This document shows, one piece after another, positions 6,776-52,294 of a DNA stretch of 64,000 nt. The translations under genes were made by a program, and so were the position numbers. The stretch is from Euglena gracilis. Lineage: Eukaryota. The first letter of the stretch is position 1. Each line of letters begins with the position of its first letter. The DNA is taken from assembly GCA_039621445.1 (NCBI GenBank), contig CP154954.1, forward strand, positions 11,133,229 through 11,197,228, in the 5' to 3' direction. Below the pieces are notes generated by a model. That model made no database searches and was not told where the DNA came from. It saw nothing but the letters and a program-made list of their open reading frames with translations.

Positions 6776-8431
6776 TCAGAAAGTGTTTATGTTATTGCGC
6801 TTGTTCCACAGCTTCCAATCCTGCTGGATATATCCAACAAAACTGGATGCTGGCTCCCAAGTGTCCTCCTCTGGTCCATACCCTTTCCAGCGAGCTTTCC
6901 AGTAGTGCACACCCCTGTCGACCTTGTGGTCTATTATCCTATCGACCACAAAGTCGTCCGTTTCAGGTAATCTGGAACGGGGCTTGAAATACAGGCAGGG
7001 GATAGCTTTTCCGTCTGGGGGGCTTAGGTACGGTTTGAAGTCGTCCATATGTGTTGAAGTTTTGTAAAAACTATTTCCGTTTGTTGGAATGAATTTCTGT
7101 GATACGTGATTGGACTGCAGAGCGGAGTGATTCCACTTCTGCAAACCACGTTTCACAGCTGACGCTACTTCGGGCGGGTTTCTCCGAAGGGACATCCCCT
7201 ATGGCCGGAGGGTCCCGTCCGAAAACAATTTTGTACGGCGAGTGTGGTAATACCAACCCTGGCAAGGTATTGATGTAAAATAAACACCAATGAAGAACGG
7301 ATAACCAATTCTTACCCGAGTTGGCCAGTGAAAGGCGAAGCATATTGACAACGGATTTCACGGCTGCCTCGGCTCTACCATTGCCTTTCGGGCGGTATAT
7401 AATGGAAAAATGCTGCTCAATGCCGAGTAAACCGCACAAAGTTGTGAAAAACCGCGAAGAGATCAAGTGATCTTGATCACTCACAATTTCGTTCGGTAAA
7501 CCCATTAAGCAGATACATTTCTCCGGGAATATGGATGCCAGAATTTGGGCTGTCAACCCTGCTTTCCGGCATGGAATGGCTACAATGTACCCACTCAGCC
7601 GACAGACGACAACAAAAATTGTAAATTTTGTCATCTGATCCTTTGCAAGGTTCAAGTTCGAGAAAGTCCATGCAGAGGGACGTAAAAGTGTCTGGTGGTA
7701 CGGGGAAAAAGTCCATCGTACCAGGGGGGGTACCTCAGCGCGGTTTCACAGCCTGGCAAAATTGGCACCGTTGCGAAATTCGCAAACAGCGCGAATATAA
7801 ATCTTTTTCACTCAGGGTTGTGCCATATCTGCGACCCACTAGTGAAAGAAGTTTGGGGGCCCCAGGGTGACGAATGTTGTGATACCTCAAAATCACATCA
7901 TCAACCAGGTCTTGGGGTATACAATATTTATAACCGGAAACATTCCGGAAAATAAGCCGCAATGGTGATAGAGAGTAATTCTCTATGGATTCACCATTAC
8001 GAAGTCTATTCACAATGGTACTATATATAGGGTCACGCGAATATTCCCATTCGCGGAGAAATAGGGGGGTAGGAGTTTCCGTACGCGTAATGCGACGGGG
8101 TGCGGCAGTGCGTCCACGCCGGCGCCTTCCACGCAATGGTGAAATGGCGATGCTGCGATATACCCGGGAAACGGGTAGTGAACCGAGCATGTTGTCCGCA
8201 GCGTCGGATCGACGTGCGAACTGGTCAGCCTCATGGCTGCCATGAAAAGTCGCATCACCCTCATCCGGGTTCCCAGGATAATACCAGGGGGCTCGGCTGA
8301 GAGGATCCGCAACGTTTTGCGTGTGACCTGGGGTATAGATAACCACCAGGTTAAACTGGCTCAAGAACTCATGCCATCGGCATCTTCTGCCAACTGATGA
8401 CATGGCCTTGTTTAGGTCCTCTGTATACCAG
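6776..8431 (-). pseudogene. pol: Gypsy pol 3' part (RNase H end, integrase, chromodomain), duplicate copy
   Basis: HNIRH...CQFC zinc motif, MDF/SDQD/RAE catalytic triad, chromodomain FVVDRIIDHK...YWKARWKGYGPEEDTWEP; frameshifted. Confidence 0.88.
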
Positions 8432-15500: not shown

Positions 15501-15659
15501 GCATGAACATGTGTTGGACGTATGCCTCAGGGGGCACGTCCGACTGTCCGGCTGGGAGCATGCGTGCGCCGCGCGGGTAATCCGCGTGCGTCCCGTACTG
15601 CGAGACAAATTGCTCCGCAGGCGGCTCGCGCGGCGGCATTCGCTGCGGCGAGGGCGGGC

Positions 15660-18600: not shown

Positions 18601-19343
18601 TTTGGATTCTGGATTTTGGGCAGAAGAAAGTTCAACATGTCAATGTCAAAAAAAAAGATTTGCAGAATCAATTGTCAGAATTTCAATGTCAGTTTTGGAT
18701 TTTGAAAATGTTGGTGCCTGGCCCTGCCATTTTGTGGGTGCCGCTTCAAGGGGGCCCTGCCCTGGCATTCACAATTGGCAACCCGAGCCAGCCTGGGCTT
18801 CTGGGGGGCCTTCTGGGATAACTTGTGGTTTCTGGGGGGAAACCACAGGTTCCTCAGATGGCGTCCCAAATGGGCCCAGGAGTGGGCAAGGGGGGGTCAT
18901 GGAGGATTGTGTTGTATTGGCTGGGATTGCTGGCAGCAGCTGCTTTACGCTTTAATCGGTTTTGTTGTACATTACACAGTCGACAGCGCCCCCCCCCCTA
19001 AAAAAAAAACCACCCCCAGACCAAAATCCCCAGATCAATGCCAGCCGCCCAACTTCGTGGGTTGTCGGCATTGGCCTGGGAGGGGTGTGTGGGAGGGCGG
19101 CTGGCACCAGCAAAAATTAGGAAGAGCAAAGCCTAATTCACACAAAAAATTGCCATTTCACTTTGTAGGTGGCAAAAAGCTGAATACCTTGTTCAAATCG
19201 TCTTGGAACACTTTGTTTTGATGCCTTGCATTGGGTTTTACTGGTGGAAGTTCCGGCGGAAGGATTACAAAAAAGTGGTATTTTGAAGCGCTGAAGCCAG
19301 AAAATCCAAGTGAATTCCCAGAAAAAAGACATCTCAGAAAACT
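15660..19343 (+). mobile_element. Tandem TRIM-like non-autonomous LTR element (4 LTRs) inserted in ORF3 of element A
   Basis: Same structure as 2241-5955. TSD GGGC at 15656-15659 and 19344-19347. No recognisable protein in the internal region. Confidence 0.92.
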
Positions 19344-20163
19344 GGGCGAGCAAAAATTTTCGTCATCCCAGGTGGGACATGCACAGCCTCACCTACCGGT
19401 GGGGGCGTGTGCTCACGCATATGCACGGTGTGGGATCCCACCGGCGTCTGCGTTTGCAGCATGGGCGGCACATACATGCCCAGGTCCATCATTGTCTCGC
19501 CAGGCTCGAATCTGGAATCGGATGCCGACGAGAAATACCGTCTCCCCGTCATCAGGACTTGACCACAGGGACACCACTGAGCCACAGGCGTGTTGGCTAC
19601 CACCAACAACGGAGCACAGTATGCATCCCAAAGGGCTTGCATAAAGGGCTCCGTTGGGGGTGTGCGCACATACGCATCGCCCGCTCCAACGTCTCCATAG
19701 TGCGGAAGATCATCTCTCCCGTATACGGGGGCAGGCGCGATCTGCGCTGCGCTGGTGGCTGACGTGCCGGCTGCTGGACGGCAGATGGATATGGTACCGC
19801 ATATGCGGACCGGCTGCTGGTAGCCGCGGCGAATACCAGGGCTGAAACCCTCTCAGCATATGGGGCACCCGGAATCGGGGCCTCAGTTTACTGAGGGTAC
19901 TGGGGGTATGGCTCGCCAGAAGGCTGCGGCCATGGTGGACCTGGTCCAGGTCCGCGCCCAGGCAGCAGGATGCTACCCGAACGACGACGACAACTAAGGG
20001 TGACCTTGTTGTCAGTCGCTTTGAGTGCTGGTGCACTGAAAAAGGAAGGCTTCTATCTTAATCAAAAACTCTGCGAGAAAGATAGAGAAAGAAGGAAGTG
20101 CAGGGGGGGTATAAACGCGAAACATTCACGTAAAACACACGCATTCTCCAAAACGAAATCGTT

Positions 20164-23100
20164 TCAGAAAGTGTTTATGTTATTGCGCTTGTTCCACAGC
20201 TTCCAATCCTGCTGGATATATCCAACAAAACTGGATGCTGGCTCCCAAGTGTCCTCCTCTGGTCCATACCCTTTCCAGCGAGCTTTCCAGTAGTGCACAC
20301 CCCTGTCGACCTTGTGGTCTATTATCCTATCGACCACAAAGTCGTCCGTTTCAGGTAATCTGGAACGGGGCTTGAAATACAGGCAGGGGATAGCTTTTCC
20401 GTCTGGGGGGCTTAGGTACGGTTTGAAGTCGTCCATATGTGTTGAAGTTTTGTAAAAACTATTTCCGTTTGTTGGAATGAATTTCTGTGATACGTGATTG
20501 GACTGCAGAGCGGAGTGATTCCACTTCTGCAAACCACGTTTCACAGCTGACGCTACTTCGGGCGGGTTTCTCCGAAGGGACATCCCCTATGGCCGGAGGG
20601 TCCCGTCCGAAAACAATTTTGTACGGCGAGTGTGGTAATACCAACCCTGGCAAGGTATTGATGTAAAATAAACACCAATGAAGAACGGATAACCAATTCT
20701 TACCCGAGTTGGCCAGTGAAAGGCGAAGCATATTGACAACGGATTTCACGGCTGCCTCGGCTCTACCATTGCCTTTCGGGCGGTATATAATGGAAAAATG
20801 CTGCTCAATGCCGAGTAAACCGCACAAAGTTGTGAAAAACCGCGAAGAGATCAAGTGATCTTGATCACTCACAATTTCGTTCGGTAAACCCATTAAGCAG
20901 ATACATTTCTCCGGGAATATGGATGCCAGAATTTGGGCTGTCAACCCTGCTTTCCGGCATGGAATGGCTACAATGTACCCACTCAGCCGACAGACGACAA
21001 CAAAAATTGTAAATTTTGTCATCTGATCCTTTGCAAGGTTCAAGTTCGAGAAAGTCCATGCAGAGGGACGTAAAAGTGTCTGGTGGTACGGGGAAAAAGT
21101 CCATCGTACCAGGGGGGGTACCTCAGCGCGGTTTCACAGCCTGGCAAAATTGGCACCGTTGCGAAATTCGCAAACAGCGCGAATATAAATCTTTTTCACT
21201 CAGGGTTGTGCCATATCTGCGACCCACTAGTGAAAGAAGTTTGGGGGCCCCAGGGTGACGAATGTTGTGATACCTCAAAATCACATCATCAACCAGGTCT
21301 TGGGGTATACAATATTTATAACCGGAAACATTCCGGAAAATAAGCCGCAATGGTGATAGAGAGTAATTCTCTATGGATTCACCATTACGAAGTCTATTCA
21401 CAATGGTACTATATATAGGGTCACGCGAATATTCCCATTCGCGGAGAAATAGGGGGGTAGGAGTTTCCGTACGCGTAATGCGACGGGGTGCGGCAGTGCG
21501 TCCACGCCGGCGCCTTCCACGCAATGGTGAAATGGCGATGCTGCGATATACCCGGGAAACGGGTAGTGAACCGAGCATGTTGTCCGCAGCGTCGGATCGA
21601 CGTGCGAACTGGTCAGCCTCATGGCTGCCATGAAAAGTCGCATCACCCTCATCCGGGTTCCCAGGATAATACCAGGGGGCTCGGCTGAGAGGATCCGCAA
21701 CGTTTTGCGTGTGACCTGGGGTATAGATAACCACCAGGTTAAACTGGCTCAAGAACTCATGCCATCGGCATCTTCTGCCAACTGATGACATGGCCTTGTT
21801 TAGGTCCTCTGTATACCAGTGTTGAAGGCTCTCATGATCCGTCAACACGAGTATCTGGACAAAGCTGCTGGCTATCCAGCTGCGGAATGTCTGGAGAATA
21901 AGCACAATGGTATATGTCTCCTTTTCGCGAATGCTCCATTTAACCTGTCCTTTCCCGTTGTCGCCCTGTAGCTTCCTGCTGAAGAAAGACACAGGTCGGA
22001 GTTCATTCGCCGCATTATGCAGGCTAAGAACCCCGCCAACAGCGTAATCGCTGCTGTCGACTTCCAGGACATATTGTTTATATGGATCCGCGATATCGAG
22101 AACCACGTTCTCGAGCAGCAAGTCCTTGATTTTATTCAAGGCCTCGCGCATTTGGTCATCCCAAATGACTTTTGCGTTATCGGGTGTCCGATTTTTGAGT
22201 TGTCGGGTTAGGGGTACCGCGATTTTTTGCGAAATCTTTCATGTAAACCGCGTAATGTTGGGCTAATCCCAAAAATCCCTTTAAATGCGTTAAGGTCTTA
22301 ATGACATCAGGAGTCCATTTCTTAATGGCCTCCATCTTACTGGGTGCCGCTTTACGCTGCCCGTTGCTCAGGATATGCCCGCAAAACTTAATAATTTTGC
22401 AAAACAGGTGCATTTTGGAACCCTTCACAAAAAGCGCATGCTTTTTGAACGCAGATAATACCACCCGCACATCGTGATAGTGCGGTTCGAGGATAGCCTC
22501 GCCCGATTTCGCGGATGGCGGTTGGGTTCCCACCAGTACATCATCGATGTACACCAGAGCAAACGGTAAATCGCGCAAAACCCACTCTATCATGCGTTGA
22601 AACATGGCTGGGCCCATTCCTTACACCCATGGGAGTACCGTCCATTGGTACACACCCTTGGATGTCACGAATGCCGTGTACGGTTGCGAATCAGGATGCA
22701 AACGCATCTGATGGAAACCGTCTTCCAGATCAAAGATTGAGCACAACCGGTTATCCGATTGTCTGGTGATCAAATCTTTGATCAGCGGTAACGGGAAGGG
22801 GTCATCCTTCGTTTGGGAGTTCAGGTACCGGTAATCCAGCACTAGTCTCTACTTCTTTTGACCAGACTGGTCAGCGGGTTTGGGCACCACAAAAACCTGT
22901 GATGTCCATTCGCTCTTGGAAGGGATAATCCACTTCCGCTGGATGGGTTTCTCAATCATCTCGTTGAGAGCTTGTTCGCGTTCACCCGAACAACGGAAGA
23001 ATTTACGGTGCATGGGTTTAGCGCCATCCTTGAGCTCGATTTTGCAAACACCGAACGGGCCGCGAATCGCGGGGTCGATGTCGCTGGCGTATACTGGGTT

Positions 23101-25273
23101 ATCCAGTACACCATGAAATTCGCGAGTAATTCGCGAACAATAGTCAGCAGACTTGGGGAGTTGGTCCGCACTCTCAATGACCGCAGAAATCTGCGTTGAG
23201 GGTGTGGCATCCCCCTTGGTACCAAGGTATCTTGGCACACGCACATCGGATATTCCGAATGCGTCAAAGAAACAAACGCCAAAAATTATTTCTTTAACCG
23301 GTGGTAATAATATACTGGACGTCCTCAATCCCGTTGCGCAAGGTAACTTTATATCGCCCGCTACTACCTAACCTCTCCAAAATTTCGCATGGGCCGAGCC
23401 AAAGAGGATCTAGCTTGGAGGATTGCATGCGGGTGCGGTTATTCCGTACCCACACGTGGTCACCTGGACTATACACAGGCACAAAAATCCTCGAATAGTG
23501 GTACATCAGCGGGTAAATCCCACCAGTGGAAACACACATGGGATAGTTGGTGAAACCAATCCGCATTCGGATTGACGGGTATGAGGAGAGCTCCTCGCGC
23601 TTCATCGCGGAGGATTTTCTCCACCACATCCGGGAAAAAGTTCGGGAGAGGGTGCATCCAGAGCACCGTATCACCCCAAAATTTCAGAAATGCGTTGGAA
23701 TGTCGCGACCAATATCGTGACAAGCGCGCATGCGCTTTTGATGAAAACACATCAATTTCTAATGACAAATCGAAGGAATCAGCCACAACCGCGATTTTGG
23801 AGAACGATCCCTCCAAAATTCGGTATTGACCAAAATTTAATGCGTTCCATACGCGCATCGCGTATGTGTCGACCTGGTTCGCGGGGTGAAGAGCAGTAAC
23901 GCAATTCAGGGATCCGCAAACATAAGTCAAGGGTGTTTTATCCACTCTCCCTAGGGGCATTCCTCAATGTTGATGGGTTGGATGGGTGTATACCCAGTCC
24001 ATATCATGCGAGATGGAGGTGGGGGAGGTGTGTGACACGGATTTCGCTGTCCCAAACAACAAGGCAATACCTCGTTGTTGGAGCACTTGATGTACGGTCG
24101 CGCATTGCGAACCGCAACCAAGTGTATGGTTGCGCGAAATCGGGATTATTGTTGGTGTTTGGACTAGGCATCCACAATCGAAATCTGGCTGGGCGGAAAT
24201 TCTCCCTCAGTGCACACATTGGAAGGGAGTGTCGGAGTAGTGGTCCTGGTCGCGCACGTTGGTCTGGTGGGGGTGTGTGTAAAAGTCGGGATGCGCTGTT
24301 GTAGCTGCTGGGGGGTGTACAGATGTATCTGAAAGCGATACATCTGGTGGAAAACGGGGTATTGGTGCAGCTGGGCGACTACTCGACACCGTACGTACTT
24401 CAGGCCTTTGGGCTTTCGTCTTGTAACCCAGTGGAACGAAAGGGGTACCGCTACTCGCTTGCCCTGCCTCATGGGGAACGGAAGTTGGTGTGTCAATGGG
24501 CAGGGGGTGAACTTTCTCGGTACACCCGGTGTGGAAAACGTTGGTTGGTGTGGTTGGTAACGGGGTAAATTTTTTTGAAATCGGTGTGGAAATATTGGTG
24601 GTCGTCGCGGTTGACGCCACGGGTGCTGAAGGTTTGGGGGGCAATGAAGAGAATGGTGATGTGCGCCAACCGTGGGAGTGGCAATCCACTACCAGCCGGT
24701 GCTGACGTAAAAAGGGGTATCCAAGAATTACGCCAGAACCATGGATTCCGGATTCGTATCCCCAGGTATCCGGAAAATTTTGCGTTTGGGGGGGGTGTGA
24801 GTGGTGCTTGGGGATGAGGGGTAGGACAATGTCCAAAAAGCATCCCAAGTCACCGCCGCACATGGGGGTGTTGTCAGCCGTCGTAATTTTGATCAGCTTC
24901 TTGGCTTTCACCAAGAGGGGGGTTGGTATCAACCCGAACCGAAAAAGTAGTGCAATGCGACAACCAGTATCAATGAGAATTTTGACTTTTGCACTACAAT
25001 TTTGGAATTTGATTTCCGCTTGGACCAAAAGTTCAATGGGGGGTAAGCAAAGTGAAGGGTCTGGCGAAAATACGTTTTCTTCCAGCTTTCCCATGATCCC
25101 TTTCCTACTTTGCACAACATTCCGAGCGGAAAGCTGGAGTGGGGGGTGGGGGACCCGAAAATTTTCCGGGTACCGACCAGAAAGGCAGATGGGCAGGGGG
25201 GGCGGGGTTGATCAGGTCCTACCTCCATCTGTTCATCAGCCCAGAGGTCCGTTCCCTCGGACCTCGGGCTCCC
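20164..25273 (-). pseudogene. pol: Pol of element A: aspartic protease, MTase-like domain, RT, RNase H, integrase, chromodomain
   Basis: LIDTGC and ILGYPF (protease); LDYRYLN, FDLEDGFHQ, YIDD (RT); EVDSSDYAVGGVL, REKE, LTDH, ADPLSR (RNase H); HHCC and DDE (integrase); chromodomain; several stops and frameshifts. Confidence 0.93.
23240..23835 (-). other. DNA N6-adenine methyltransferase-like domain inside Pol of A
   Basis: EIDVFSS..HARLSRYWS...NAF...W..TVLWMHPLP...VVEKI.....GALLIP.....WF follows the DIRS-type Dam MTase motif order, with NPPF replaced by HPLP. Confidence 0.75.
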
Positions 25274-28200
25274 CTACTCCAGGTCCGAACCGGCCGAATA
25301 GCCGCTATGGGCCTTTTAGAGGTGTAGAAGGATTTCAACGTGCGCACCGCCATGCGGGCATCGTCGAAATCGGTATCCGTGGTCTCATCCCCCTCCCTGC
25401 CCGAAGCCGGGGTGTCATCCTCCAAACAAGATATCTTGAAACCGACTTTATGGCGGTTGGAGGAGTGACCCTTGTCACCGCGATTCATACCGCGATGACG
25501 TTGGCCAGGGCGTGGAGAACGAGAACGCAGACATTTGGATGAGTGGTGATCACTCGATCCACAAAGCGAACACCGAGATTTGTGTCGCGATTCTGGGTAA
25601 CGGGGGGATCGGTTTCCCGATTTCCCGTCAACCGTCGCGGTGACCGGATATCCCGTCGACGATGACCGGTGTATCGAGGTTTTCCCGACGAGGATCGCGA
25701 AGAAGATGATCCGCTTCGCAAAACACGATCGCGATGTCTCGCGATGAGAATCACACTTCTTGGACAGGGCACCGGGTGACCTACCCCGAGGGGTACCGTG
25801 TTTCCGCTGATCGCAGAACAGGATCCGGGGGCTAATACCACCGGAACGGGCACCCGATGACCGTGAATTGCCCAATTGGCGTGAAAATGCGGAGGAACCC
25901 GAACCCCGTGATGTGGTCGAGCCTCGCGGACTCTGAATACGCTTACACACTTCAGGATTAGGACATTCCCGAGACATATGTCCCGCTTTGTTGCAGAAAA
26001 AGCACACTTTATCCGTGGCTTGGTCCGAAGAACGCGGATATCGCGTTTTCGATCCCGTGTTTGGTGAGGTGGGTGAATCCGGTGATTTTTGCAATGCGTT
26101 CACCGAACCAGCCGGTAATCCAGCGGTTGGGTGTGCGTTATACGCGGATTGAATCTGACCAAGAAGCTGTGATAGCTTCAACTGCTTGGAAACATAATTC
26201 CAGCGTTGGTCAAGAGTCATTGGATGACTCGCCAACTCCTCACGGTGGATATCCTTGATGAGACTAGGCGTGAAATGCATGAGAACAGCATCAAACTGTT
26301 CGTGCACTTGCTTTTCACTGAGTTCATCCACTTCAGCGGCAAGTCCTAACCATTTGGCATACCAAAGGTCAATGGACTTCCACTTGCGGTCGGGTGGGGC
26401 GCATTGCCGCCACTTGGTCTCTAGGGTAATCCTAGCGACCAAACTTGAACTGGTGGAAGCGTATTGCTCCACCAGGTCATCAAGGGAAACGCGGTAGCGA
26501 ATCACGAGTTGTCGCGCGCGTTCCTTCTCATCCCTAGGGAGGCAATCGATGAATTCCATCTTGATCACCTCCGGGTTTGTGTCCTGGGTTGGCCCTTTTA
26601 ATGCCCAGTAGTACTGCAAGTCCCGGAAAAACTGTCTCCATGTGGTTGGATCACCGTCCCATTGGGGTTTCACCTTATTCGCGATTGCGATGGTGCCCTT
26701 GAAGTCTTTCTGAGAAACCCAATGACCCTCGGTGGTATTCCGTGGTTTTGGGCCTGGGTACGCTCGAGCACCAAGCGTATCCTTTCCGGAATCTTGGCGG
26801 AATTCGCGAAATTTCTGGTGAAGGTGAATCCTGGTACCAGAAATCCGGTCGCAAACCCTGTTGGGCACCCGTAATACGGGGACTCTCCGGTGTGGGGGTA
26901 TGTCGCGCATGCAACATGTGACCCACTCCCGGTGTACGGGTTTGGCTCATTCCACGCACAAGCATGGAATGATGGATTTCTTGGTGGGACTTGGCGGAAT
27001 CGCCGTGTTTTCCGAAAATTCGGTTCCCGTAATGGGAAATTCATCCGAAAACTGGGTTTGGGTTGTGGGCAAGGCCAATGGTGGCACAATTCGCGGAATC
27101 GCGGATTGTGACACTCGGGACACGGGTTGTGGTCGTGCATGTGCACCTAGAGTCGGGTTATGAAAACACGACTCTGAAACATTTGGCGCGTCTTCGGCAA
27201 TGCATACTGCCGAATTGCGGTGTGAAACCCGCTGTTGGTTGGACACATTATCCAAACCCACAGACAAGTCATGCACAGTTTGCTCCAAGTGCTCAACGAG
27301 TTGGAGTTGACCGCAAATACGGTCAACTTCATCCTCCAAAGCGCGAATACGCTTGCGGTAACGGGAAAAGTCATCCGAGTGCGGAAACCTTTCGGAAATT
27401 TCGGTAACATCTTGGACAAGGTTCCCGTGAGAATTATCCAATAATTGGAGTTGTCCCATTAATGCTTTTACAGCATTTGAGAGAATCTGCAGTTACCTTG
27501 GTTGGTGTGGTGGTGGGTGCAACCGGTGCAGCGTTATCCGACAACGCGGTTGTGGTACCCACGGGAAAATTTGCGGATTGCAGCTTATCCAAAAACGCGG
27601 AAATTCGCTCATCCAACCTGGTAATTTCACTTTGCGTGGATCGGGCATTCCGATTAACCGATTATTCAAGCAGTAATAGGCTGTTGCAGAAACTTGCAAT
27701 GTTTCCTGATTGTCAGTGAGCATTTTGTCATAAAATGCCTTGAAATCGGGGTTCTCGGTAATCCAGGAATTGGAACCTGCAGGTAGAGACTGCATTTCTT
27801 TTTTTTTAGCAGACACCGATGCATACCGGGTCTGGAGTTTTCCAGTAGCAGTTTGAATACCGCTAATGTCCGGAACTCGGTGGGAAAGTGCGCAATAGCT
27901 TTGTTGCAAACCCCTAATGGCCGAGTTAATCCCGCCAATGTCGGATTGCAACTGCAACTGCAGGGAATCCTGCCGTTGTGCTACTTCTGCGACTTTCGCG
28001 CTCAGATTGGCTAATCCAACCCGATTTGCGTCACAATAGCAGGTTTTCTGATCCAAGCGGGAAAGTCGCTCCTCCAACTGCCGCACATACGTGTGGGGAG
28101 CAAAATTCTCGTTGGATTGTGACTGGAATTGCCGAAATTTTTCTGTTTCTTCATCGCACAACTGCATAATGCGGTGTTGCGATTCATGGAAAGTTGCGGA

Positions 28201-29536: not shown

Positions 29537-29853
29537 CGTGTAAGTCTGATTCCCAATTCTCCTTTCCCAATTCCCAAAAAGCCTTCGCTTTCGCCTTGGC
29601 GCACCTACTTGGGAACTGAAAATCAGAGTAACAGAAAATTCCTTTTTCCCACTTCCCAAGAAGCAATGCACGAAGCAATGCAGGGAGGACGGACTGGATA
29701 TCCAAGTCCGGTCCGGAGAAAAGGAAGGACAAAGGGAAAAACAGAATACCACCTGTGGAGAGAGAAGGGGCACCCATTAGGAGATCCTAATAGGATCTGC
29801 TTCCATCCTAACTTCCTCAACGGAAGGGGACAGAAGCATATGCCTGGTACACA
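29537..29853 (-). repeat. 5' LTR of element A (~317 bp)
   Basis: Homologous to 40514-40828. Begins TGTGTACC on the minus strand, abuts the PBS, and interrupts the integrase of element C. Confidence 0.9.
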
Positions 29854-31732
29854 CCTCGACACCGTTGGGTAAAGCGACTTTATAGCGCCGACTTGTACCC
29901 AACCGATCAAGGATCTCACATGGTCCCATCCAGAGGGGGTCCAACTTCGTGGATTGCATGCGAGTTCTACCGTTCCGAACCCACACGCGGTCACCTGGGT
30001 TGTATACCGGTGATTTGTAATCTTGTAAGAATTGTGTTTTTGTTTTTGTAAGTGTATAGCGACTACGTGCTTTTGCACATCCGTGCACAATAATTCTACT
30101 TCAGAGAACAATGTTTCGCAGCTCACGCTAGAACGAGCGGGTCGTTCTGACTCGATGTCGCCCATGGCTGGGGGGTCTCGTCCGAAGACGATTTTGTACG
30201 GTGAGTATTGTAATATCAGACGCGGTAAAGTGTCGATATAAAATAAACACCAGGGTAGTACTTGTAGCCAGGCATTGTGCGATTTGGCCAGAGAAAGTCG
30301 TAGCATGTTGACTACAGCTTTCACTGCCGCTTCAGCGCGACCATTTCCTTTTGGACGATAAATAAGAGAAAAATGCTGCTCGGTTCCTAGTAAATCACAA
30401 AGAATTGTAAAAAATCAAGAAGTAATCAAATGGTCTTGATCACTCACGATATCATTCGGTAAACCCATGAGGCAAATGCATCTTTCTAGAAACGTTTGTG
30501 CCAAAATTTGTGCTGTCAACCCTGCTTTCTGGCATGGAATGGCTACAATGTACCCACTCAGCCGACAGACGACAACAAGAACGTAATCGCAAATTTTGTC
30601 ATCTGTTCCTTTGCAAGGTTGAAGTTCCAGAAAATCCATGCAGAGGGAAGTAAAAATGTCATTTGGTACGGGGAAGAAATCCAACGTACCAGGGGGGGGT
30701 ACCTCTGCCCGGTTTCACAGCTTGACAAATTTGGCACCGTTGCGAATTTTGTAAACAGCGCTTGTACAAATTTTTTTCGGTCAGGGTTGTACAGTATCTG
30801 CGACCCACCAAAGAAAGAAGTTTGGGGGCCCCAGGGTGACCTTGGTTGTGATAACATAAAAGTTCGTCATCAACCAAGTCACAGGGTATGCAGTATTTAT
30901 ATCCAGTATCATTTCGGAAAATCAAACGTAAAGGTGATAAGGTATAATTCTCAAACAATTCGCCATTACGTAATCTTTTTACGACATTATTGTATAAAAT
31001 CATCCTTGGAATAATCCCATTCACGAAAAAAGAGACGAGTTGGATATTCTGATCGCGCAACTCGGCGGGGGCCCGGCATTCTGCCGCGTTTTCGTTTTCC
31101 CCGTACGGGGGCTATCGGCATCCGCCGCCAAGTCCGCGAAACAGGAAAGTTGTCAAGCAGGTTGTCAGCGGCGTCTGCGCGCCTTGCGTATTCGTCGGCT
31201 TCGCGACTTCCGTGGAACGTGGCATAACCCTTGTCAGGGTTACCAGGGTAATACCAGAGTGCACGTGAAAGTGGGTCTGCGACTTTTTGAGTATGACCTG
31301 GTGTGTAAACTACCACCAGGTTGAATTGACTCAAAAATCCGTGCCAACGGCATCTTCGGCCAACTGAGGACATGGCTTTGTTCAAGTCTTCGTTGTACCA
31401 GTGTTGGAGAGCCTCATGGTCTGTCAACACTAGTATTTGTACGAGTGAACTGGCGACCCAACTTCGGAATTTTTGTAGGATAAGGACAGTGGCGTACGTC
31501 TCCTTTTCTCGTATGCTCCATTTGTACCTTGTAGATTTCTGCTGAAGAATGCTACAGGGCGCAGTTCATTGGACGAGTTATGTTGACTCAACACACCGCC
31601 GACGGCATAGTCGCTCCTGTCGACCTCCAGTACGTATGGTTTGTATGGGTCGGCAATGTCAAGTACAACGTTGTCCAACATCAGTTGTTTAATTGTCGTT
31701 AGCGATTCTGGCATTGTATCATCCCATTGTAT
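29854..31732 (-). pseudogene. pol: Pol of element C, 3' part (RNase H, integrase with GPY/F-like module), cut by insertion of A
   Basis: EVDRSDYAVGGVL, LTDH, HNQGH..CQIC, MDF/SDQD, YNPGDRVWVR...KLDPLWMGPCEI. Confidence 0.9.
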
Positions 31733-35877: not shown

Positions 35878-36137
35878 AAGCAACTGGGGAAAAAACATAC
35901 ACCCCAGAAACCAGATTCAAAAAATGTTTGACTTGGCTGTTTTTCCATAAGCCAAACTCTGTGAACTGAAAATCCAGAATTAAACTTCTGGCTGATTTCA
36001 CATCTGCCTCCAACACCAAATTACGATGAAAAACGTATGAAACAACAACAATCACAAAAACAGACCACTGAAACATACTTAACACCATAAAGTGCTGCGC
36101 TGTGCCAGTCAGTGGTTAGACCTGTGCTGAAAGACAA

Positions 36138-37821: not shown

Positions 37822-40333
37822 CTTTGTATTGTCAGGAGCGCGATTCTTGAGTTGTCGCGTCAGTGGTACCGCGATTTTCGCGAAGTCCTTCATGTTAATC
37901 GCGTAATACTGCGCTAAACCCAAGAATCCTTTTAAATGGGTGATTGTCTTGATGTTTTCAGGTGTCCAGTTCTTTATAGCTTCGAGTTTGCTCGGAGATG
38001 CTCTCCTTTGTCCGTTGTTAAGAATGTGTCCACAAAATTTTATCGTTTCGCGAAACAAATGCATTTTCGCAGCTTTGACAAAAGCAAATGTTTTTGCAAC
38101 GTTGGCAGTACGGAACGTATATCGCGGTAGTGAATATCAAGGATATCACTACCCGAATTTGTAAGTGGAGGAGGTGTGCCTATCAGCACATCATCAATGT
38201 ATACCATTGAAAACGGTAAGTTCTCGTAACATGCATTGTATCATTCTTTGGACCATGGCTGGGAAATTCTTAACACCCATTGGTAACACCGTCCATTGGT
38301 AAACTCCGGGGGATGTTACAAATGTGATGTATGGTTGTGAGTCGGGGTGTAAGTGCATCTGGTGAAAACCATCCTCTAAGTCGAAAATCAACCAAAGTGA
38401 TTTGTAATCAGGTCTTCGATAAGTAGTAACGGAAATGGATCGTCTTTTGTCTGTGAGTTCAAGTATCGGTAATCCAGCACAAGTCTCCACTTCTTCTCTC
38501 CAGAAGCATCAGGAGGCTTGGGTACCACGAAAGCTTGTGAGGTCCACTCGCTTTTGGAGGGTATGATCCATTTTCGTTCAATCAGTTTTTCGATCATTGT
38601 ATTGAGAGCTTGTTCTCTTTCGCCTGAACAGCGAAAGAATTTTCGGTGCATGGGCTGTGCACCTTCTTTAAGTTCTATTTTACAGATACCAAAAGGTCCG
38701 CCAGTTGCAGCATCTATTAAATGGGAATAGATAGGATGTTCTAAAACATCACTGAATTCGTGATTGATCTTTGTACATAGTTATTGTGATTTGGGATGTT
38801 GACCACCACTTTCTATGACTGCGGATAGTTGGTACGATTGGTCTTTCTGACCTTTATCCCGTAGGAATTTGTCAGTGTGGTCAACAGTTCCGAATGCATC
38901 AAAGAAACAAACACGAAAAATGATTTCCTTCAATGGTGGTAACACGACACCACAAAAATCTTCAAACAGGGGAGTGTCATTCGGTAAATCCCACCACTGA
39001 AAAGTGACATACGTCAGTTGTTGGAAACATTCCGCTTCGGGATTTATAGGAATGAGTAGCACACCGCGTGCTTGATCCCGAAGGATCCTGTCAACAAAAA
39101 AAGGGATAAGTTTTAGAGGTGGGTGTATCCACAGGACCACCTCACCCCAAAGCTTATCAAACGCATTTGTACGGCTTGACCAGTTGTAGGGTAAACGAGA
39201 ATGTGCTTTGGATGAGAACGCACCAATCTCCAATTGTAGGTCCATCGACTTCGCGATTTGCGAGATTTTGGAAAACCAAGTTTCCAAAGTGCGATATTGT
39301 CCAAAATTGAACGCATTCCAGATGCGGTCCGCGAAAACTGTTGCGGTTTAAGTCCTGTGGAGGGCTGAAACACAGTTTACCGAGCCACATCGGTAATGCG
39401 GAGTGTCCGAAGACACTTCATCAGGCATTGTACCAAGTGTATCAGGTGTATTGTATAAAGGACAATTGTCGTTGGCATCCTGCCACTTGTATGCGGGGAC
39501 ATTTTGGGGGGTTGGCATTCTGCCGTTCGGGGTCAGAGAGATTGGCTTTCTGCCATTGGAGATCTTCCAGCGCGATTCTCGTTATTCCGAACAGGGACGT
39601 GATTCTGCATTTGTCCAATTGTCGATGTACTCCAACACACAACGGGTAACAACCCGGTGTGTTGTGTTCTCGGTCAGCGGGCAGGGTACCCTCGGTACCG
39701 GTTCCGGTACCAAGTGTACTCTGGTTGTTGAGCAAAGCGATTAGTTTGGAAGGTTCAACAATACATCCACAGTCGAAATCAGGTTGTGTGGAAATTCTCC
39801 GGCAATGTGCGCATTGGTAGGAAGTGTCGGTCTGGTAGTGCATGTCAGCCATGTGTAGTGTGTGCATAGGGGTGTTGGAAGTTGTAGTTGCTGGGGGGTG
39901 TACAGGTGTGTCCAAAATCGACACACCTGGTGGAAAACGTGAAATTTGTGCAGCTGGGCGGTTACTCGACACCGAAATTTCTTCAGCCCTTTGGGCTTTC
40001 ACCTTGGAACCCAGTGAAACGTGGGGGGTTAAGCTACTCGCTTTCCCTACCGCATGGGAAACGTGCGGTAAAATTGTAGTGGGTAGGGGGGCAGCTTTCT
40101 CTTTACCCGTGGTGTAGGAAACGATGTTTTCGTTTGTGGAAAACGTTGTGGCCAGGCGGGGGGACATCTGGGAAGGTGTCTTGGGGGAGAAATTCGGTGC
40201 TGTGAGCTGTGTGCGTGTAGTAGTGCGCAAACCGAGGGAGGGGCAGTCCACAACAAGGCGGTTCTGACGCAAGAATGGAAAACCCAAAATTACTTCAGAC
40301 CCGCGGATACCCAATTCGTAAATCCAGGTACCC
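37822..40333 (-). pseudogene. pol: Pol of element C, 5' part (protease end, Cys motif, MTase-like domain, RT)
   Basis: ILGFPFLRQ; QCAHC...DCGC; EIGAFSS...NAF...LWIHPPLKLI (38781-39287); LDYRYLN, FDLEDGFHQ, YIDD. Joins 31732 once element E is removed (NTKI|QWDD). Confidence 0.9.
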
Positions 40334-40513: not shown

Positions 40514-40828
40514 AGTGTACGTCTGATTCCCAATTCCCCTTTCCCAATTCCCAAAAGCCTTCGCTTTCGCCTTGGCGCACCTACTTGGGAACTGAAAATA
40601 AGAGTAACAGAAAATCCCTTTTCGCACTTCCAAAGAAGCAAAGCACCGAGCAATGCAGGGAGGACTGACTGGATAACCAAGTCCGGTCCGATGGAAAGGA
40701 AGGAAAAGGTATAAAGAAGAATACAACCTGTGGAGAGAGAAGGGGCACCCATTAGGAGATCCTAATAGGATCTGCTTCCATCCTAACTTCCTCAACGGAA
40801 GGGGACAGAAGCATACGCCTGGTACACA
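40514..40828 (-). repeat. 3' LTR of element B
   Basis: Homologous to 29537-29853; preceded on the minus strand by a PPT. Confidence 0.9.
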
Positions 40829-47350: not shown

Positions 47351-50300
47351 CTATTTTGTTGCGCAGAAAGTGTTTATGTTATTGCGCTTGTTCCACAGCT
47401 TCCAATCCTGCTGGATATATCCAACAAAACTGGATGCTGGCTCCCAAGTGTCCTCCTCTGGCCCATACCCTTTCCAGCGAACTTTCCAGTAGTGCACACC
47501 CCTGTCGAGCTTGTGGTCTATTATCCTATCGACCACAAAGTCGTCCGTTTCAGGTAATCTGGAACGGGGCTTGAAATACAGGCAGGGGATAGCTTTTCCG
47601 TCTGGGGGGCTTAGGTACGGTTTGAAGTCGTCCATATGTGTTGAAGTTTTGTAAAAACGATTTCCGTCTGTTGGAATGAGTTTCTGTGATACGTGATTGG
47701 ACTGCAGAGCGGAGTGATTCCACTTCTGCAAACCACGTTTCACAGCTGACGCTACTTCGGGCGGGTCTCTCCGAGGGGATATCCCCTATGGCCGGAGGGT
47801 CTCGTCCGAAAACAATTTTGTACGGTGAGTGTGGTAATACCAACCCTGGCAAGGTATTGATGTAAAATAAACACCAATGAAGAACGGATAACCAATTCTT
47901 ACCCGAGTCAGCCAGTGAAAGGCGAAGCATATTGACAACGGATTTCACGGCTGCCTCGGCTCTACCATTGCCTTTCGGGCGGTATATAATGGAAAAATGC
48001 TGCTCAATGCCGAGTAAACCGCACAAAGTTGTGAAAAATCGCGACGAGATCAAGTGATCTTGATCACTCACGATTTCGTGCGGTAAACCCATTAAGCAGA
48101 CAATTTTTCCAGGAATATGGATGCCAAAATTTGGGCTGTCAACCCTGCTTTCCGGCATGGAATGGCTACAATGTACCCACTCAGCCGACAGACGACAACA
48201 AAAACGTAATTGTAAATTTTGTCATCTGATCCTTTGCAAGGTTCAAGTTCGATAAAATCCATGCAGAGGGACGTAAAAATGTCTGGTGGTACGGGGAAAA
48301 CGTCCATCGTACCAGGGGGGGTACCTCTGCGCGGTTTTACAGCTTGACAAATTTGGCACCGTTGCGAAATTCGCAAACAGCGCGAATATAATTCTTTTTT
48401 ACTCAGGGTTGTGCATTATCTGCGACCCACTAGTGAAAGAAGTTTGGGGGCCCCAGGGTGACCATGGTTGTGATACCTCAAAATCACATCATCAACCAGG
48501 TCTTGGGGTATACAATATTTATAACCAGAAACATTCCGGAAAATAAGCCGCAATGGTGATAGAGAGTAATTCTCTATGGATTCACCATTACTACGTCTAT
48601 TCACAATGGTACTATATATAGGGTCACGCGAATAACCCATTCGCGGAAAAATAGGGGGGTATGAGTTTCCGTACGCGTAATGCGACGGGGTGCGGCAGTG
48701 CGTCCACGCCGGCGCCTTCCACGCAATGGTGAAATGGCGATGCTGCGATATACACGGGAAACGGGTAGTGAATCGAGCATATTGTCCGCAGTGTCGGATC
48801 GACGTGCGAACTGGTCAGCCTCATGGCTGCCATGAAAAGTCGCATCACCCTCATCCGGGTTCCAAGGATAATTCCAGGGGGCTCGGCTGAGAGGATCCGC
48901 AACGTTTTGCGTGTGACCTGGGGTATAGATAACCACCAGGTGAAACTGGCTCAAGAACTCATGCCAGCGGCATCTTCTGCCAACTGATGACATGGCCTTG
49001 TTTAGGTCCTCGGTATACCAGTGTTGAAGGCTCTCATGATCCGTCAACACGCGTATCTGGACCAAGCTGCTGGCTATCCAGCTGCGGAATGTCTGGAGAA
49101 TAAGCACAATGGCATATGTCTCCTTTTCGCGAATGCTCCATTTAACCTGTCCTTTCCCGTTGTCGCCCTGCAGCTTCCTGCTGAAGACAGCCACAGGTCG
49201 GAGTTCATTCGCCGCATTATGCGGGCTAAGAACCCCGCCAACTGCGTAATCGCTGCTGTCGACTTCCAGGACATACGGTTTATATGGTTCCGCGATATCG
49301 AGAACCACGTTCTCGAGCAGCAAGTTCTTGATTTTATTCAAGGCCTCGCGCATTTGGTCATCCCAAATGACTTTTGCGTTATCGGGTGTCCGATTTTTGA
49401 GTTGTCGGGTTAGGGGTATCGCGATTTTCGCGAAATCTTTCATATAAACCGCGTAATATTGGGCTAATCCCAAAAATCCCTTTAAATGCGTTAAGGTCTT
49501 AATGACCACAGGAGTCCATTTCTTAATGGCATCCATCTTACTGGGTGCGGCTTTACGCTGCCCGTTGCTCAGGATGTGTCCGCAAAACTTAATAATTTTG
49601 CGAAACAGGTGCATTTTGGAACCCTTCACAAAAAGCACATGCTTTTGGAACGCGGATAACAGCGCCCGCACATCGCGATAATGCGGTTCGAGGATATCCT
49701 CGCCCGATTTCGCGGATGGTGGTTGGGATCCCACCAGTACATCATCGATGTACACCAGAGCAAACGGTAAAACGCGCAAAACCCACTCTATCATGCGTTG
49801 AAACATGGCTGGGCCATTCTTATCACCCATGGGGAGTACCATCCATTGGTACACACCCTTGGATGTCACAAATGCCGTGTACGGTTGCGAATCAGGATGC
49901 AAATGCATCTGATGGAAACCGTCTTCCAGATCAAAGATTGACCACAACCGGTTATCCGATTGTCTGGTGATCAAATCCTCGATCAGCGGTAACGGGGAGG
50001 GGTCATCCCTCGTTTGGAAGTTCAGGTACCGGTAATCCAGCACTAGTCTCCACTTCTTCTGACCAGACTGGTCAGCAGGTTTGGGCACCACAAAATCCTG
50101 TGATGTCCATTCGCTCTTGGAAGGGATAACCCACTTCCGCTGGATGAGCTTCTCAATCATCTCTTTCAGAGCTTGCTCGCGTTCACCTGAACAACGGAAG
50201 AATTTCCGGTGCATGGGTTTAGCGCCATCCTTGAGCTCGATTTTGCAAACACCGAACGGACCGCGAATCGCGGGGTCGATGTCGCAGGCGTATACTGGGT

Positions 50301-52294
50301 TATCCAGTACACCATGAAATTCGCGAGTAATTCGCGAACAGTAGTCAGCAGACTTGGGGTGTTGGTCCGCACTCTCAACGACCGCAGAAATCTGCGTTGA
50401 GGGTGTGGCATCCCAATTGGTACCAAGGTATCTTGGCACACACACATCGGATATTCCGAGTGCGTCGAAGAAACAAATGCGAAAAATGATTTGTTTAACA
50501 GGTGGTAATAATATACCACAAAAGTCCTCGAATAGTGGTACATCAGCGGGTAAATCCCACGAATGAAAACACACAGAGGATAGTTGGTGAAACCAATCTG
50601 CATTCGGACTGACAGGTATGAGGGGAGCTCGCCGCGTTTCATCGCGGGGGATTTTCTCCACCACATCCGGGATAAGTTTTGGGGGAGGGTGCATCCAGAG
50701 GACCGTATCACCCCAAAATTTTAGAAACACGTTGGAATGTCGCGACCAATATCGTGACAAGCGCGCATGCGCTTTTGATGAAAACGCATCAATTTCCAAC
50801 GACAAATCGAAGGAATCGGCCAAAACCGCCATTTTGGAGGACGATCCCTCCAAAATACGGTATTGACCAAAATTAAATGCGTTCCATACACGCATCACGT
50901 ACGTGTCGACCTGGTTCGTGGCAATTCAGGGATCCGCAAACATAAGTCAAGGGTGTGTTATCCACACTCCCTAGGGGCATTCCCAAGGGTTGATGGGTTG
51001 GATGGGTTAATACCCAGTCCGTATCATGCGAGATGGAGGTGGGGGAGGTGTGTGACACGGATTTCGCGGTCCCAAACAACAAGGCAATACCTCGTTGTTG
51101 GAGCACTTGATGTACGGTCGCACATTGCGATCCGCAACCAAGTGTATGGTTACGCGAAATCGGGATTAGTGTTGGTGTTTGGACTAGACATCCACAATCG
51201 AAATCTGTCTGGGCAGAAATTCTCCTTCAGTGCACACATTGGAAGGTAGTGTCGGAGTAGTGGTCCTGGTCGCGCATGTTGGTCTGGTGGGTGTGTGTGT
51301 AAAAGTTGGAATGCGCTCTTGTAGCTGCTGGGGGCTGTACAGATGTATCTGAAAGCGATACATCTGGTGGAAAACGGGGTGTTGGTGCAGCTGGGCGACT
51401 ACTGGACACCGTACGTACTTCGGGCCTTTGGGCTTTCGTCTTGTAACCCAGTGGAACGAGGGGGGTACCGCTACTCGCTTGCCCTGCCTCATGGGGAACG
51501 GACGTTGGTGTGTCAATGGGCAGGGGGTGAACTTTCTCGGTACACCCGGTGTGGAAAACGTTGGTTGGTGTGGTTGGTAACGGGGTAAAAAATTTTGAAA
51601 ACGGTGTGAAAAAATTGGTGGTCGTCGCGGTTGACGCCACAGGTGCTGAAGGTTTGAAGGGCAATGAAGAGAATGGTGATGTGCGCAAACCGTGGCAGTG
51701 GCAATCCACTACCAGCCGGTGCTGACGTGAAAAGGGGTATCCCAGAATTACGTCAGAACCATGGATTCCGGATTAGGATCCCCAGGTGTCCGGAAAATTT
51801 TGTGGTTGGGGGGGGTGTGAGTGGTGCTTGGGGATGAGGGGTAGGACAATGTCGAAAAAGCATCCCAAGTCACCACCACACATGGGGGTGTTGTCAGCCG
51901 TCGTAATTTTGCTCGGATTCTTGGCTTTCACCAAGAGGGGGGTTGGTATCAACCCGAACCGAAAAAGTAGTGCAATGCGACAACCAGTGTCAATGATAAT
52001 TCTGACTTTTGCACAAAAATTTTGTATTTTGGTTTCCGCTTGGACCAAAAGTTCCATGGGGGGTAAGCAAAGTGAAGGGTCTGGCGAAAATAAGTTTTCT
52101 TACCAGCTTTCCCACCAACCCTTTCCTACTTTGCACAACATTCCGAGCAAAAAGTTGGAGTGGGGGGTGGGGGACCCGAAAATTTCCCGGGTACCGACCA
52201 GAAAGGCAGATGGGCAGGGGCGGCAGGGTTGATGAGGTCCTACATCCATCTGTTCACCAGCCCAGAGGTCCGTGCCCTCGGACCTCGGGCTCCC
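47351..52294 (-). pseudogene. pol: Pol of element B (PR, MTase-like, RT, RNase H, integrase, chromodomain)
   Basis: IIDTGC; a single 765-aa ORF (48601-50898) contains EIDAFSS...WMHPPPKLI, then RT (YIDD) and RNase H; integrase and chromodomain lie downstream. Confidence 0.94.

What the first reader, a model, noticed from the sequence alone, without database searches (positions are those of the whole stretch)
23316..23479. A 164-nt integrase segment precisely missing from its site and present inside the MTase domain of the same element
Seen: relative to B, A has a 164-nt insert without TSD encoding PVYSPGDHVWVR...KLDPLWLGPCEI...NGIEDV, the GPY/F-like integrase module. The integrases of both A (~20437) and B (~47637) lack this module and are frameshifted there, whereas C retains it. 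Placing the insert at TTCAACACA|TATG restores the frame exactly (54 codons + CA|T: FNT-PVY...EDV-HMDDF). Matching endpoints at donor and acceptor sites suggest precise excision and re-insertion, for example RNA-level excision or circularisation with capture during reverse transcription. The ends are not GT-AG.
Basis: partly seen in the sequence, partly recalled or inferred. Interest (0 to 1): 0.72.

Follow-up and report, generated by a model that had tools for sequence, protein, structure and literature searches.

The report
Integrase piece relocated inside Euglena retrotransposon
One dead copy of a Euglena gypsy-type jumping gene has had the 164 bases that encode a small integrase domain removed from their normal place and set down, letter-perfect, 2.9 kb further up in the same element; this is a rare balanced rearrangement whose mechanism is not settled.

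Summary
Copy A carries a 164-nt insert (23316-23479, minus strand) that copy B lacks. It has no target duplication and no boundary ambiguity. It encodes the SH3-like C-terminal integrase domain. A, A' and B all lack these 164 nt in their integrase, at one identical junction. Independent public contigs show the intact family form, with the segment sitting between 20437 and 20438, to within a 2-nt CA ambiguity. Deletion and insertion are therefore coupled, not coincidental.

The element is a Euglena DAM-LTR chromovirus, a kind described in a 2026 preprint. The insert lies about 21 residues past the recognisable Dam match. It is out of frame and stops the polyprotein.

The RNA-splicing reading was tested and not supported. 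The donor site has no GT-AG ends and no match to the Euglena nonconventional-intron code. The code match at the new site is at chance level (31%).

All three breakpoints lie in local hairpins. Segment orientation is kept and no base is lost.

My best reading (about 0.4) is one multi-switch rearrangement during reverse transcription, with B arising by recombination with an intact element. DNA breakage and rejoining, or RNA cut-and-ligate, remain live rivals. Whether any other genomic copy has the insert is unknown.

The parts
23316..23479 (-). Segment S. This is the 164-nt insert in copy A, between the Dam-like domain and RT. It encodes the integrase SH3-like (GPY/F) module. It is out of frame with the upstream Dam frame, which reads FEDFC-ACV-stop.
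20428..20447 (-). Deletion junction in the integrase of copy A (20437|20438; sense CTTCAACACA|TATGGACGAC). There is a 2-nt CA ambiguity.
   Evidence: the intact form in contigs is
7040..7059 (-). The same deletion junction in copy A' (7049|7050). A' runs into the N gap at 8432-8444 before it reaches the Dam site.
47627..47646 (-). The same deletion junction in copy B (47636|47637).
50503..50530 (-). Empty acceptor site in copy B (50516|50517; sense CGAGGACTTTTGTG|GTATATTATTACCA). It lies inside a 774-aa open frame spanning Dam, RT and RNase H, and in the 5' arm of the hairpin GUGGUA-UAUUAU-UACCAC.
29854..30010 (-). Homologue of S at its native integrase position in the diverged fragment C. It is cut by A's 5' LTR 7 nt before the position that matches the 3' end of S.
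38937..38964 (-). Empty acceptor-site homologue in C (38950|38951).
23469..23963 (-). Dam-like adenine-methyltransferase domain ORF of copy A. The Pfam Dam match covers residues 62-139 of 164. The ORF ends at a stop 11 nt into S.
20164..23367 (-). Remaining pol of copy A: RT, RNase H, integrase zinc finger and core, and the chromodomain. It is broken by several frameshifts and a TAG.
29538..29853 (-). 5' LTR of copy A (TGTGTACC...CTTACA), followed by CG and a PBS-like TGGTAGCAGAGGAGG.
   Evidence: That this PBS matches initiator tRNA-Met is recalled, not tested.
40515..40828 (-). 3' LTR of copy B, preceded by the polypurine tract GGGAGGGGGA.

Best explanation
Write the intact element as M-R-S-K. 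M is gag, protease and Dam. R is the 2,878 nt from RT to the integrase core. S is the 164-nt SH3 module. K is the chromodomain and everything 3' of it. Copy A is M-S-R-K, an exchange of two adjacent blocks that uses only three breakpoints.

I take it to be the product of one aberrant round of reverse transcription.
- During minus-strand synthesis the enzyme left the template in the loop of a strong hairpin at S|K.
- It re-landed on the CA at the end of R, skipping S.
- It copied R, then copied the still undegraded S RNA.
- It then resumed on M.

Copy B (M-R-K) then arose by ordinary homologous recombination, or by gene conversion, between an A-type and an intact element somewhere in R.

Shown: the three breakpoints, their exactness, the existence of the intact form, and shared ancestry of A and B.
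Inferred: the order of template use, that it was a single event, and the origin of B.
For: - The endpoints of the loss and of the gain coincide to within 2 nt, confirmed on contigs of intact copies. By my own rough figure, two independent events would match with odds of about (3/11000)^2.
- S and R both keep the sense orientation, as expected when RNA is the only template.
- The deletion joint has a 2-nt CA microhomology.
- All three breakpoints lie within local hairpins with perfect stems of 5 bp or more. Only 23% of positions in A or B do so, which gives 0.23^3 = 0.012. The criterion was chosen after seeing the data.
- S|K lies 1-3 nt from the centre of the perfect palindrome GTCCATATGGAC.
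[quoted passage not shown] It places strand transfer at hairpins and pause sites.
- A and B share ancestry. Of the 40 listed positions where A differs from most contigs (221 more not shown), B has A's letter at 14, the majority letter at 24 and another state at 2.
- A-B identity is uneven along the element: 98.5% around the deletion and 91-95.5% across 22144-25343. That pattern is compatible with mosaic origin.
Against: - Copy choice gives no reason for the three joints to be exactly reciprocal with no base lost or added.
- The two insertion joints show no microhomology.
- It needs three non-homologous switches in one pass, and the same review puts non-homologous recombination at least 1000-fold below homologous recombination.
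- Only one locus with S at the Dam site is known.
- I could not show that an A-type copy ever transposed.
- The high identity around the deletion may simply reflect constraint on the chromodomain.
- DNA-level rearrangement is evident in the same window, namely a fold-back inverted duplication with a 5-nt spacer at 55282/55288 and tandem 1.33-kb repeats.
Confidence: 0.4

Rival explanations
1. DNA-level cut and paste. Three double-strand breaks fell within 3 kb of one DNA copy, either the integrated copy or the unintegrated cDNA. The ends were rejoined blunt in the wrong order.
For: - A balanced exchange with exact reciprocity is what physical breakage and rejoining of fragments gives.
- The two insertion joints are blunt.
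- S|K lies at a perfect 12-nt palindrome that could extrude as a cruciform.
- The same window holds a fold-back inverted duplication with a 5-nt spacer, and tandem 1.33-kb duplications. DNA-level rearrangement is therefore active in this region.
Against: - Three end-joining joints with no loss or filler at any of them are unusual.
- Orientation of S is kept, which is a 1 in 2 chance.
- B must still be explained by recombination or conversion.
- The deletion-bearing lineage sits at two or more separate insertions (A and B have different LTR flanks), so at least the deletion predates them.
Confidence: 0.23
2. RNA-level excision and reinsertion. S is cut out of the element's RNA, as a linear piece or a circle, by a Euglena endonuclease-ligase or by the nonconventional-intron machinery. 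It is then ligated or reverse-spliced into the same RNA at the Dam site, and the result is fixed by reverse transcription.
For: - Loss-free joints at all three sites are natural for enzymatic cleavage and ligation.
- Sense orientation is kept.
- With a 1-nt slide, both donor joints are C|A (pyrimidine|purine), and they carry a 2-nt repeat. Both traits are described for nonconventional introns (PMC11282704, passages).
- Those introns leave as full-length circles and have been seen at new positions (same passages).
- S|K lies in a hairpin loop.
Against: - The donor site has no GT/GC-AG or AT-AC ends.
- It has no candidate for the genetically defined code 5'-N3CDG-/-CH'GN5-6|R within 10 nt either way (code from PMC12501133).
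- The ends of S are not brought together in the predicted fold, and S alone folds no better than shuffles (z = 0.07).
- The code match at the new site occurs by chance for 31% of segments (18% in frame).
- That match would leave a TGA at the join.
Confidence: 0.13
3. Two separate events that share hot-spot endpoints. A structure-driven deletion of S made the B-type lineage. Later a discrete S-sized RNA or cDNA fragment from an intact element was captured at a break in the Dam region of A. The ends of that fragment were set by the same hairpins.
For: - B shows that the deletion-only state exists.
- Both S boundaries lie in hairpins that could define pause or cleavage points.
- S in A differs from the intact contig at 4 of 164 letters, about the same as its flanks.
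- Capture of retrotransposon cDNA at chromosomal breaks is known in yeast. This point is recalled and was not looked up.
Against: - It requires both ends of a captured fragment to coincide with the deletion ends to the base.
- No free-standing copy of S exists elsewhere in the window. The only other look-alike is C's native copy.
Confidence: 0.12
4. Assembly artefact: the insert is a mis-assembly of reads from intact copies.
For: - A 13-N gap lies 15 kb away, and a 99.4% identical neighbour A' shows the region is hard to assemble.
- I could not see reads that bridge the A-type joints.
Against: - Mis-assembly does not place a 164-nt piece base-perfectly between two adjacent bases of a conserved site while removing it from its home.
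- S in A differs from the intact contigs at 4 of 164 letters, like the rest of A.
Confidence: 0.03

Closest known systems
Non-homologous template switching by retroviral and LTR-retrotransposon reverse transcriptase ('deletions with insertions'; review PMC3187697, passages read)
   Same: It occurs in a retroelement. The deletion has short microhomology. Inserted sequence comes from the same genome in the same orientation. The breakpoints lie at hairpins.
   Different: Here the inserted piece is exactly the deleted piece. It lies 2.9 kb from the deletion, with no base lost at any of the three joints. I know of no described case of such a balanced block exchange. My two literature searches were not aimed at finding one.
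Nonconventional introns of euglenids and their circular RNAs (PMC12501133 abstract and Results parts 2-3; PMC11170887 and PMC11282704 passages)
   Same: The organism is the same. Excision would be precise, with slidable 2-nt boundaries and non-GT-AG ends. These introns are reported to appear at new positions.
   Different: The defining CDG/CH'G pairing with fixed spacers is absent at the donor site. S is conserved coding sequence, not an intron.
Intron transposition by reverse splicing or intron circles (PMC11146597; only the search listing and the start of the abstract were seen)
   Same: The formal outcome matches: a segment leaves one place in a transcript and enters another, and the result is fixed through reverse transcription.
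   Different: S has no spliceosomal ends, and no RNA evidence was obtained.
DAM-LTR chromoviruses of Euglena gracilis (bioRxiv 10.64898/2026.05.21.726589; abstract and sections 7 and 8 read)
   Same: The host element has this architecture: gag, protease, Dam, RT, RNase H, integrase and chromodomain. The preprint stresses modular domain transfer among Euglena retroelements.
   Different: The preprint, in the parts I read, infers transfers from phylogenies. It does not describe an intra-element relocation with base-level breakpoints.
Capture of retrotransposon cDNA fragments at chromosomal double-strand breaks in yeast
   Same: A retroelement fragment is inserted without target duplication.
   Different: That process gives no linked deletion of the same fragment at its source.

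Membership tests
Ty3/gypsy chromovirus of the DAM-LTR kind (host element) | RT, RNase H, integrase and a C-terminal chromodomain in one sense orientation | tested here: met
   Pfam results: RVT_1 E 7.1e-24 (B), RT_RNaseH_2 E 4e-21 and Chromo E 4.1e-11 are all above the cut-off. Integrase_H2C2 (21.3 bits) and rve (25.5 bits) are below the cut-off.
Ty3/gypsy chromovirus of the DAM-LTR kind (host element) | Dam-type adenine methyltransferase domain in pol | tested here: inconclusive
   PF05869 gives E 8.8e-4 (19.4 bits) in A and 0.0077 (16.4 bits) in B, against a cut-off of 28.1. There is no sequence match to solved structures. No structure was predicted.
Ty3/gypsy chromovirus of the DAM-LTR kind (host element) | LTRs with TG...CA ends, a primer-binding site and a polypurine tract | tested here: met
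   The LTR reads TGTGTACC...TTACA. TGGTAGCAGAGG follows A's 5' LTR and GGGAGGGGGA precedes B's 3' LTR. No single copy in the window shows both of its LTRs.
Euglena nonconventional intron | 5'-N3CDG ... CH'G-N5-6 | purine exon start | tested here: not met
   No candidate lies within 10 nt either way of the donor-site boundaries. One candidate exists at the new site, but the chance rate is 31%. The code covers 61.2% of such introns (PMC12501133 abstract), so failure does not exclude the remaining 38.8%.
Euglena nonconventional intron | Base pairing that brings the two intron ends together | tested here: not met
   In the predicted fold of the intact context, each end sits in its own local hairpin.
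Euglena nonconventional intron | Removal from RNA, and a circular RNA product | tested here: inconclusive
   Three runs guessed to be RNA were laid as contigs. No skip of S from the intact form and no 164-nt back-joint appears among the 15 of 35 joints shown. Contigs drop rare forms.
Conventional spliceosomal intron | GT/GC-AG (or AT-AC) ends | tested here: not met
   The three possible slid boundary pairs are CC..CA, AC..CC and CA..TC.
Integrase- or transposase-mediated insertion | Target-site duplication flanking an insert with TG...CA ends | tested here: not met
   The flanks are ...TTTTGTG and GTATATT..., with no duplication. The insert starts with CC, not TG.
Reverse-transcriptase template-switch rearrangement | Microhomology at joints, sense orientation kept, breakpoints at pause sites or hairpins | tested here: inconclusive
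   Microhomology is 2 nt at the deletion joint and 0 nt at both insertion joints. Orientation is kept. All 3 of 3 breakpoints lie in hairpins of 5 bp or more, against a 23% background.

The most novel reading that the evidence does not exclude
Euglena may have an RNA-level cut-and-ligate activity, possibly the still unknown machinery that removes nonconventional introns as circles. That activity could excise a domain-sized stretch from a retrotransposon RNA and re-ligate it elsewhere in the same RNA, and reverse transcription then writes the shuffled order into the genome. Copy A would be a fossil of such an event. It would be a natural example both of how new nonconventional introns could be seeded and of how domains are shuffled among Euglena retroelements.
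Probability: 0.12. Interest if true: 0.85.

Novelty: new variant of a known kind. Interest (0 to 1): 0.42.

Why it matters
Retroelement genomes are thought to be reshuffled mainly by reverse-transcriptase template switching, but base-level records of how a whole domain moves are scarce. Here the donor site, the acceptor site, the intact ancestor form and a deletion-only relative can all be read. The event is a loss-free three-breakpoint exchange. That makes it a clean test case for telling copy choice, DNA breakage and RNA ligation apart.

It sits in an organism where domain transfer between retroelements is reported to be frequent, and where an unexplained, circle-forming intron-removal system exists. 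For the biology of this particular copy it matters little. The copy is dead, and the insert truncates its polyprotein.

Tried and rejected
1. No whole genome is held for this window, so no census of family copies was possible.

2. A protein search with the 129-aa frame that spans both A-type joints found nothing among proteins of 70-226 aa.

3. Two metagenome scans found nothing. One used the deletion junction as a 24-mer. The other used a degenerate 26-mer inside S.

4. Earlier-scan look-ups by the junction sequence and by words found nothing alike.

5. Nonconventional-intron reading. It was tested against the published code and rejected as unsupported. The tempting match at the new site (start -2, end +7, 173 nt, in frame) is at chance level and would make a TGA.

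6. Whole-segment RNA structure. S with its A-context flanks has z = 0.53. S alone has z = 0.07. Neither is special.

7. Integrase-mediated insertion. This was considered because positions 3-8 of S equal the LTR terminus TGTGTA and both donor joints read CA|NNTG. It was rejected for lack of a target duplication and because the insert keeps the two bases before the TG.

8. Microhomology-guided switching at the insertion joints. The target TGTG|GTATA resembles TGTGTATA in S, but using that similarity would have removed bases that are in fact present.

9. A sharp recombination tract between A and B. The longest difference-free stretch (150 nt, 20310-20460) spans the deletion, but it lies in the conserved chromodomain region, so it is not decisive.

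X19 has no cover over the integrase junction.

11. ARAGORN found no tRNA gene in the window to check the primer-binding site.

12. A sequence search of B's Dam region against solved structures gave only chance-level hits.
Full report
What the window is

The window is a nest of related LTR retrotransposons, all on the minus strand. Self-comparison gives this layout:
- Copy A' at 1-8431. It is 99.4% identical to A 13423-21819.
- A 13-N gap at 8432-8444.
- Copy A from 8445 to its 5' LTR at 29538-29853.
- Fragment C at 29854-40514. C is about 75% identical to A and B in pol, and it carries a nested element with 616-bp LTRs at 31734-37817.
- Copy B from its 3' LTR at 40515-40828 to 55287.
- An inverted partial copy at 55288-59511.

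Pfam finds a zinc knuckle, RT, RNase H, the integrase zinc finger and core, and a chromodomain, plus a weak Dam match between protease and RT. This is the DAM-LTR chromovirus architecture described for Euglena gracilis in a 2026 preprint (abstract and sections 7 and 8 read).

The 317-bp repeat pair first looked like C's own LTRs. It is in fact A's 5' LTR and B's 3' LTR. One copy is followed by CG plus TGGTAGCAGAGGAGG, which is PBS-like. The other is preceded by the polypurine run GGGAGGGGGA. That the PBS matches initiator tRNA-Met is my recollection and was not tested. The window has no tRNA gene.

The observation

A and B align without a break on both sides of 23316-23479, and B has nothing there. 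The flanking letters permit no sliding, and there is no target duplication. In sense orientation the insert runs CCTGTGTATAG...GAGGACGTCCA. It encodes 54 codons plus two bases of an SH3-like integrase C-terminal domain (SH3_Tf2-1, E 5.8e-6, just below the Pfam cut-off).

The insert is not in the Dam frame. The upstream ORF reads ...FEDFC, then ACV and a stop inside the insert. In B the same place lies within a 774-aa open frame...FEDFC|GILLPPVK.... The last residue aligned to the Dam profile is about 21-22 residues upstream, at profile position 104-105 of 169. The site is therefore probably in the C-terminal third of that domain, but this is not shown.

A, A' and B share one identical integrase junction, CTTCAACACA|TATGGACGAC. 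The upstream integrase frame and the chromodomain frame are out of register there. Putting the insert between them, by coordinates inside a script, gives one continuous frame into the chromodomain. Fragment C keeps the homologous stretch at that place, with 112 of 157 nt identical, and it has an uninterrupted Dam-side site. The window holds no other look-alike of the segment.

Independent confirmation

I laid Logan contigs of four coded runs on 20100-24000. The run kinds are guesses by the tool.
- Contigs go 20103-20437, then 23316-23479, then 20438-20768. Record 9 of X15 and record 15 of X16 do this, each with 4 other letters in the 164.
- In X1, 11 contigs carry the first joint and 12 carry the second.
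- X19 has none, and it has no cover there.
- The tool reports that 2 letters fit on either side. This is the CA ambiguity.

Intact elements therefore exist, with the segment at exactly the predicted place.

The Dam-side site without the insert is also seen:
- Three X1 contigs skip 23315 to 23480, and one more does so with 2 letters between.
- 25 loose ends in X1, and one each in X15 and X16, read the B-like sequence before 23480.

A's own letters are rare in X1. At 20327 about 0.4% of summed depth carries A's letter, and at 20380 about 17%. Depth of contigs is a poor measure.

The output lists only differences from the window. I therefore cannot say whether any run holds the A-type joints. This is the main gap in the evidence.

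Are A and B one lineage?

One search listed 40 positions where A differs from most contigs, with 221 more not shown. At these, B has A's letter at 14, the majority letter at 24 and another state at 2. Shared letters include 20327 and 20380, within about 110 nt of the deletion. So the deletion arose once and is shared by descent or by transfer.

A-B identity is 98.5% in 20144-20543, 95.8-97% up to 22143, and 91-95.5% from 22144 to 25343. The longest difference-free run (150 nt) spans the junction. This fits a mosaic history, but constraint on the chromodomain could give the same picture.

Formal description

With M, R, S and K as defined in the best explanation, the intact order M-R-S-K has become M-S-R-K in A and M-R-K in B. 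Only three breakpoints are used, each of them twice, and no base is lost or added. There is a 2-nt ambiguity at R|K, and the M|S and S|R joints are blunt. Orientation is kept.

Tests of the RNA-splicing reading

Euglena has conventional GT/GC-AG introns. It also has nonconventional introns with a genetically defined code, 5'-N3CDG-/-CH'GN5-6|R, with CTG-CAG also functional (PMC12501133). Related consensus motifs appear in PMC11170887 and PMC11282704.

At the donor site:
- None of the three slid boundary pairs has canonical ends.
- No code candidate lies within 10 nt either way.
- In the predicted fold each boundary sits in its own hairpin rather than pairing with the other end.
- S alone folds no better than shuffled sequence (z = 0.07).

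At the new site one code-compliant candidate exists (start -2, end +7, 173 nt). Removing it would keep the frame. But such a candidate exists for 31% of arbitrary 164-nt segments of the window, and for 18% in frame. By my reading, the join would also create TGA.

The code covers 61.2% of nonconventional introns (abstract). The test therefore weakens this reading but does not exclude it.

Structure at the breakpoints

- S|K lies in the AUAU loop of a 28-nt hairpin, UUGAGG-A-CGUCC-AUAU-GGACG-A-CUUCAA. The DNA sequence GTCCATATGGAC is a perfect palindrome.
- R|S lies 0-2 nt into the stem CACCUG/CAGGUG.
- The acceptor site lies in the 5' arm of GUGGUA-UAUUAU-UACCAC.
- About 23% of positions in A or B fall inside perfect hairpins of 5 bp or more, and 12% for 6 bp or more. 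Three of three has a chance near 0.012, with a criterion chosen after looking.
- The retroviral literature places strand transfers at hairpins and pause sites, and lists deletions with insertions among intramolecular switch products (PMC3187697, passages).

Verdict on mechanism

Exact reciprocity argues for one event acting on defined ends. Retained orientation and the hairpins lean towards an event on RNA templates during reverse transcription. I put that first, at about 0.4.

It fits best in a form where the skipped S RNA survives RNase H because it was never copied, and is then used as a template. This last step is inference.

The rivals are:
- DNA breakage and blunt rejoining (0.23).
- RNA cut-and-ligate or circle reinsertion (0.13).
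- Two events sharing hot-spot ends (0.12).
- Assembly artefact (0.03).

Under the one-event readings, B is best explained as a recombinant or convertant between an A-type and an intact element.

Leads I could not turn into tests

- Both donor joints read CA|NNTG.
- Positions 3-8 of S equal the LTR 5' terminus TGTGTA, a hexamer found only 10 times on the sense strand of the window.
- The acceptor TGTG|GTATA resembles both that motif and the SL-RNA 5' splice site GTATA quoted in PMC11170887.

Novelty and interest

The host element is a known kind. The rearrangement is a new variant of a known kind of event. It is a real and unusually clean curiosity in a dead copy, seen so far at one locus. I score interest at 0.42.

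The boldest reading not excluded is an RNA-level shuffling activity tied to Euglena's circle-forming intron removal. I give it about 0.12. It would be of high interest if a census or circular-RNA data bore it out.

Noticed in passing
window 51737-59511 (centre 55282/55288): There is a large fold-back here. The 5' part of copy B is followed by its own inverted copy. The inner arms, 54234-55282 and 55288-56336, are 96% complementary and only 5 nt apart. This is the shape expected from hairpin-primed repair of a broken end.
   Followed up: no
window 15634-19343 (and 2215-5955 in A'): The third-ORF region has a tandem expansion with a period of about 1.33 kb. It is present in A and A' and absent from B, where 46508 joins directly.
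   Followed up: partly
window 29854-40514: Fragment C is a family about 75% identical to A and B. It lies between A's 5' LTR and B's 3' LTR and has no LTRs of its own. A's LTR abuts C's SH3 homologue 7 nt before the position that corresponds to the 3' end of the moved segment.
   Followed up: partly
window 31734-37817: An element with 616-bp direct LTRs (92.9% identical) is nested inside C's RT/RNase H region.
   Followed up: no
window 8432-8444: A 13-N assembly gap hides the 5' half of A', including its Dam site, and the 3' LTR of A.
   Followed up: no
window 59935-61430: This stretch is 75-82% identical to 40817-42274 and 8507-9707. It looks like the 3' region of a further related family.
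   Followed up: no
window 23474-23479 and 29848-29853 / 40823-40828 (minus strand): Positions 3-8 of the moved segment (TGTGTA) are identical to the first six bases of the LTR. Both donor breakpoints have the form CA|NNTG.
   Followed up: partly
window 20171, 21005/21006, 22614-22631: Most contigs of the family differ from copy A here by small structural changes. These include a 12-nt TGTTTATGTTTA present in X15 and X16 behind 20171, and loose ends at 21005/21006 and 22631. Copy A therefore carries several private indels besides the one studied.
   Followed up: no
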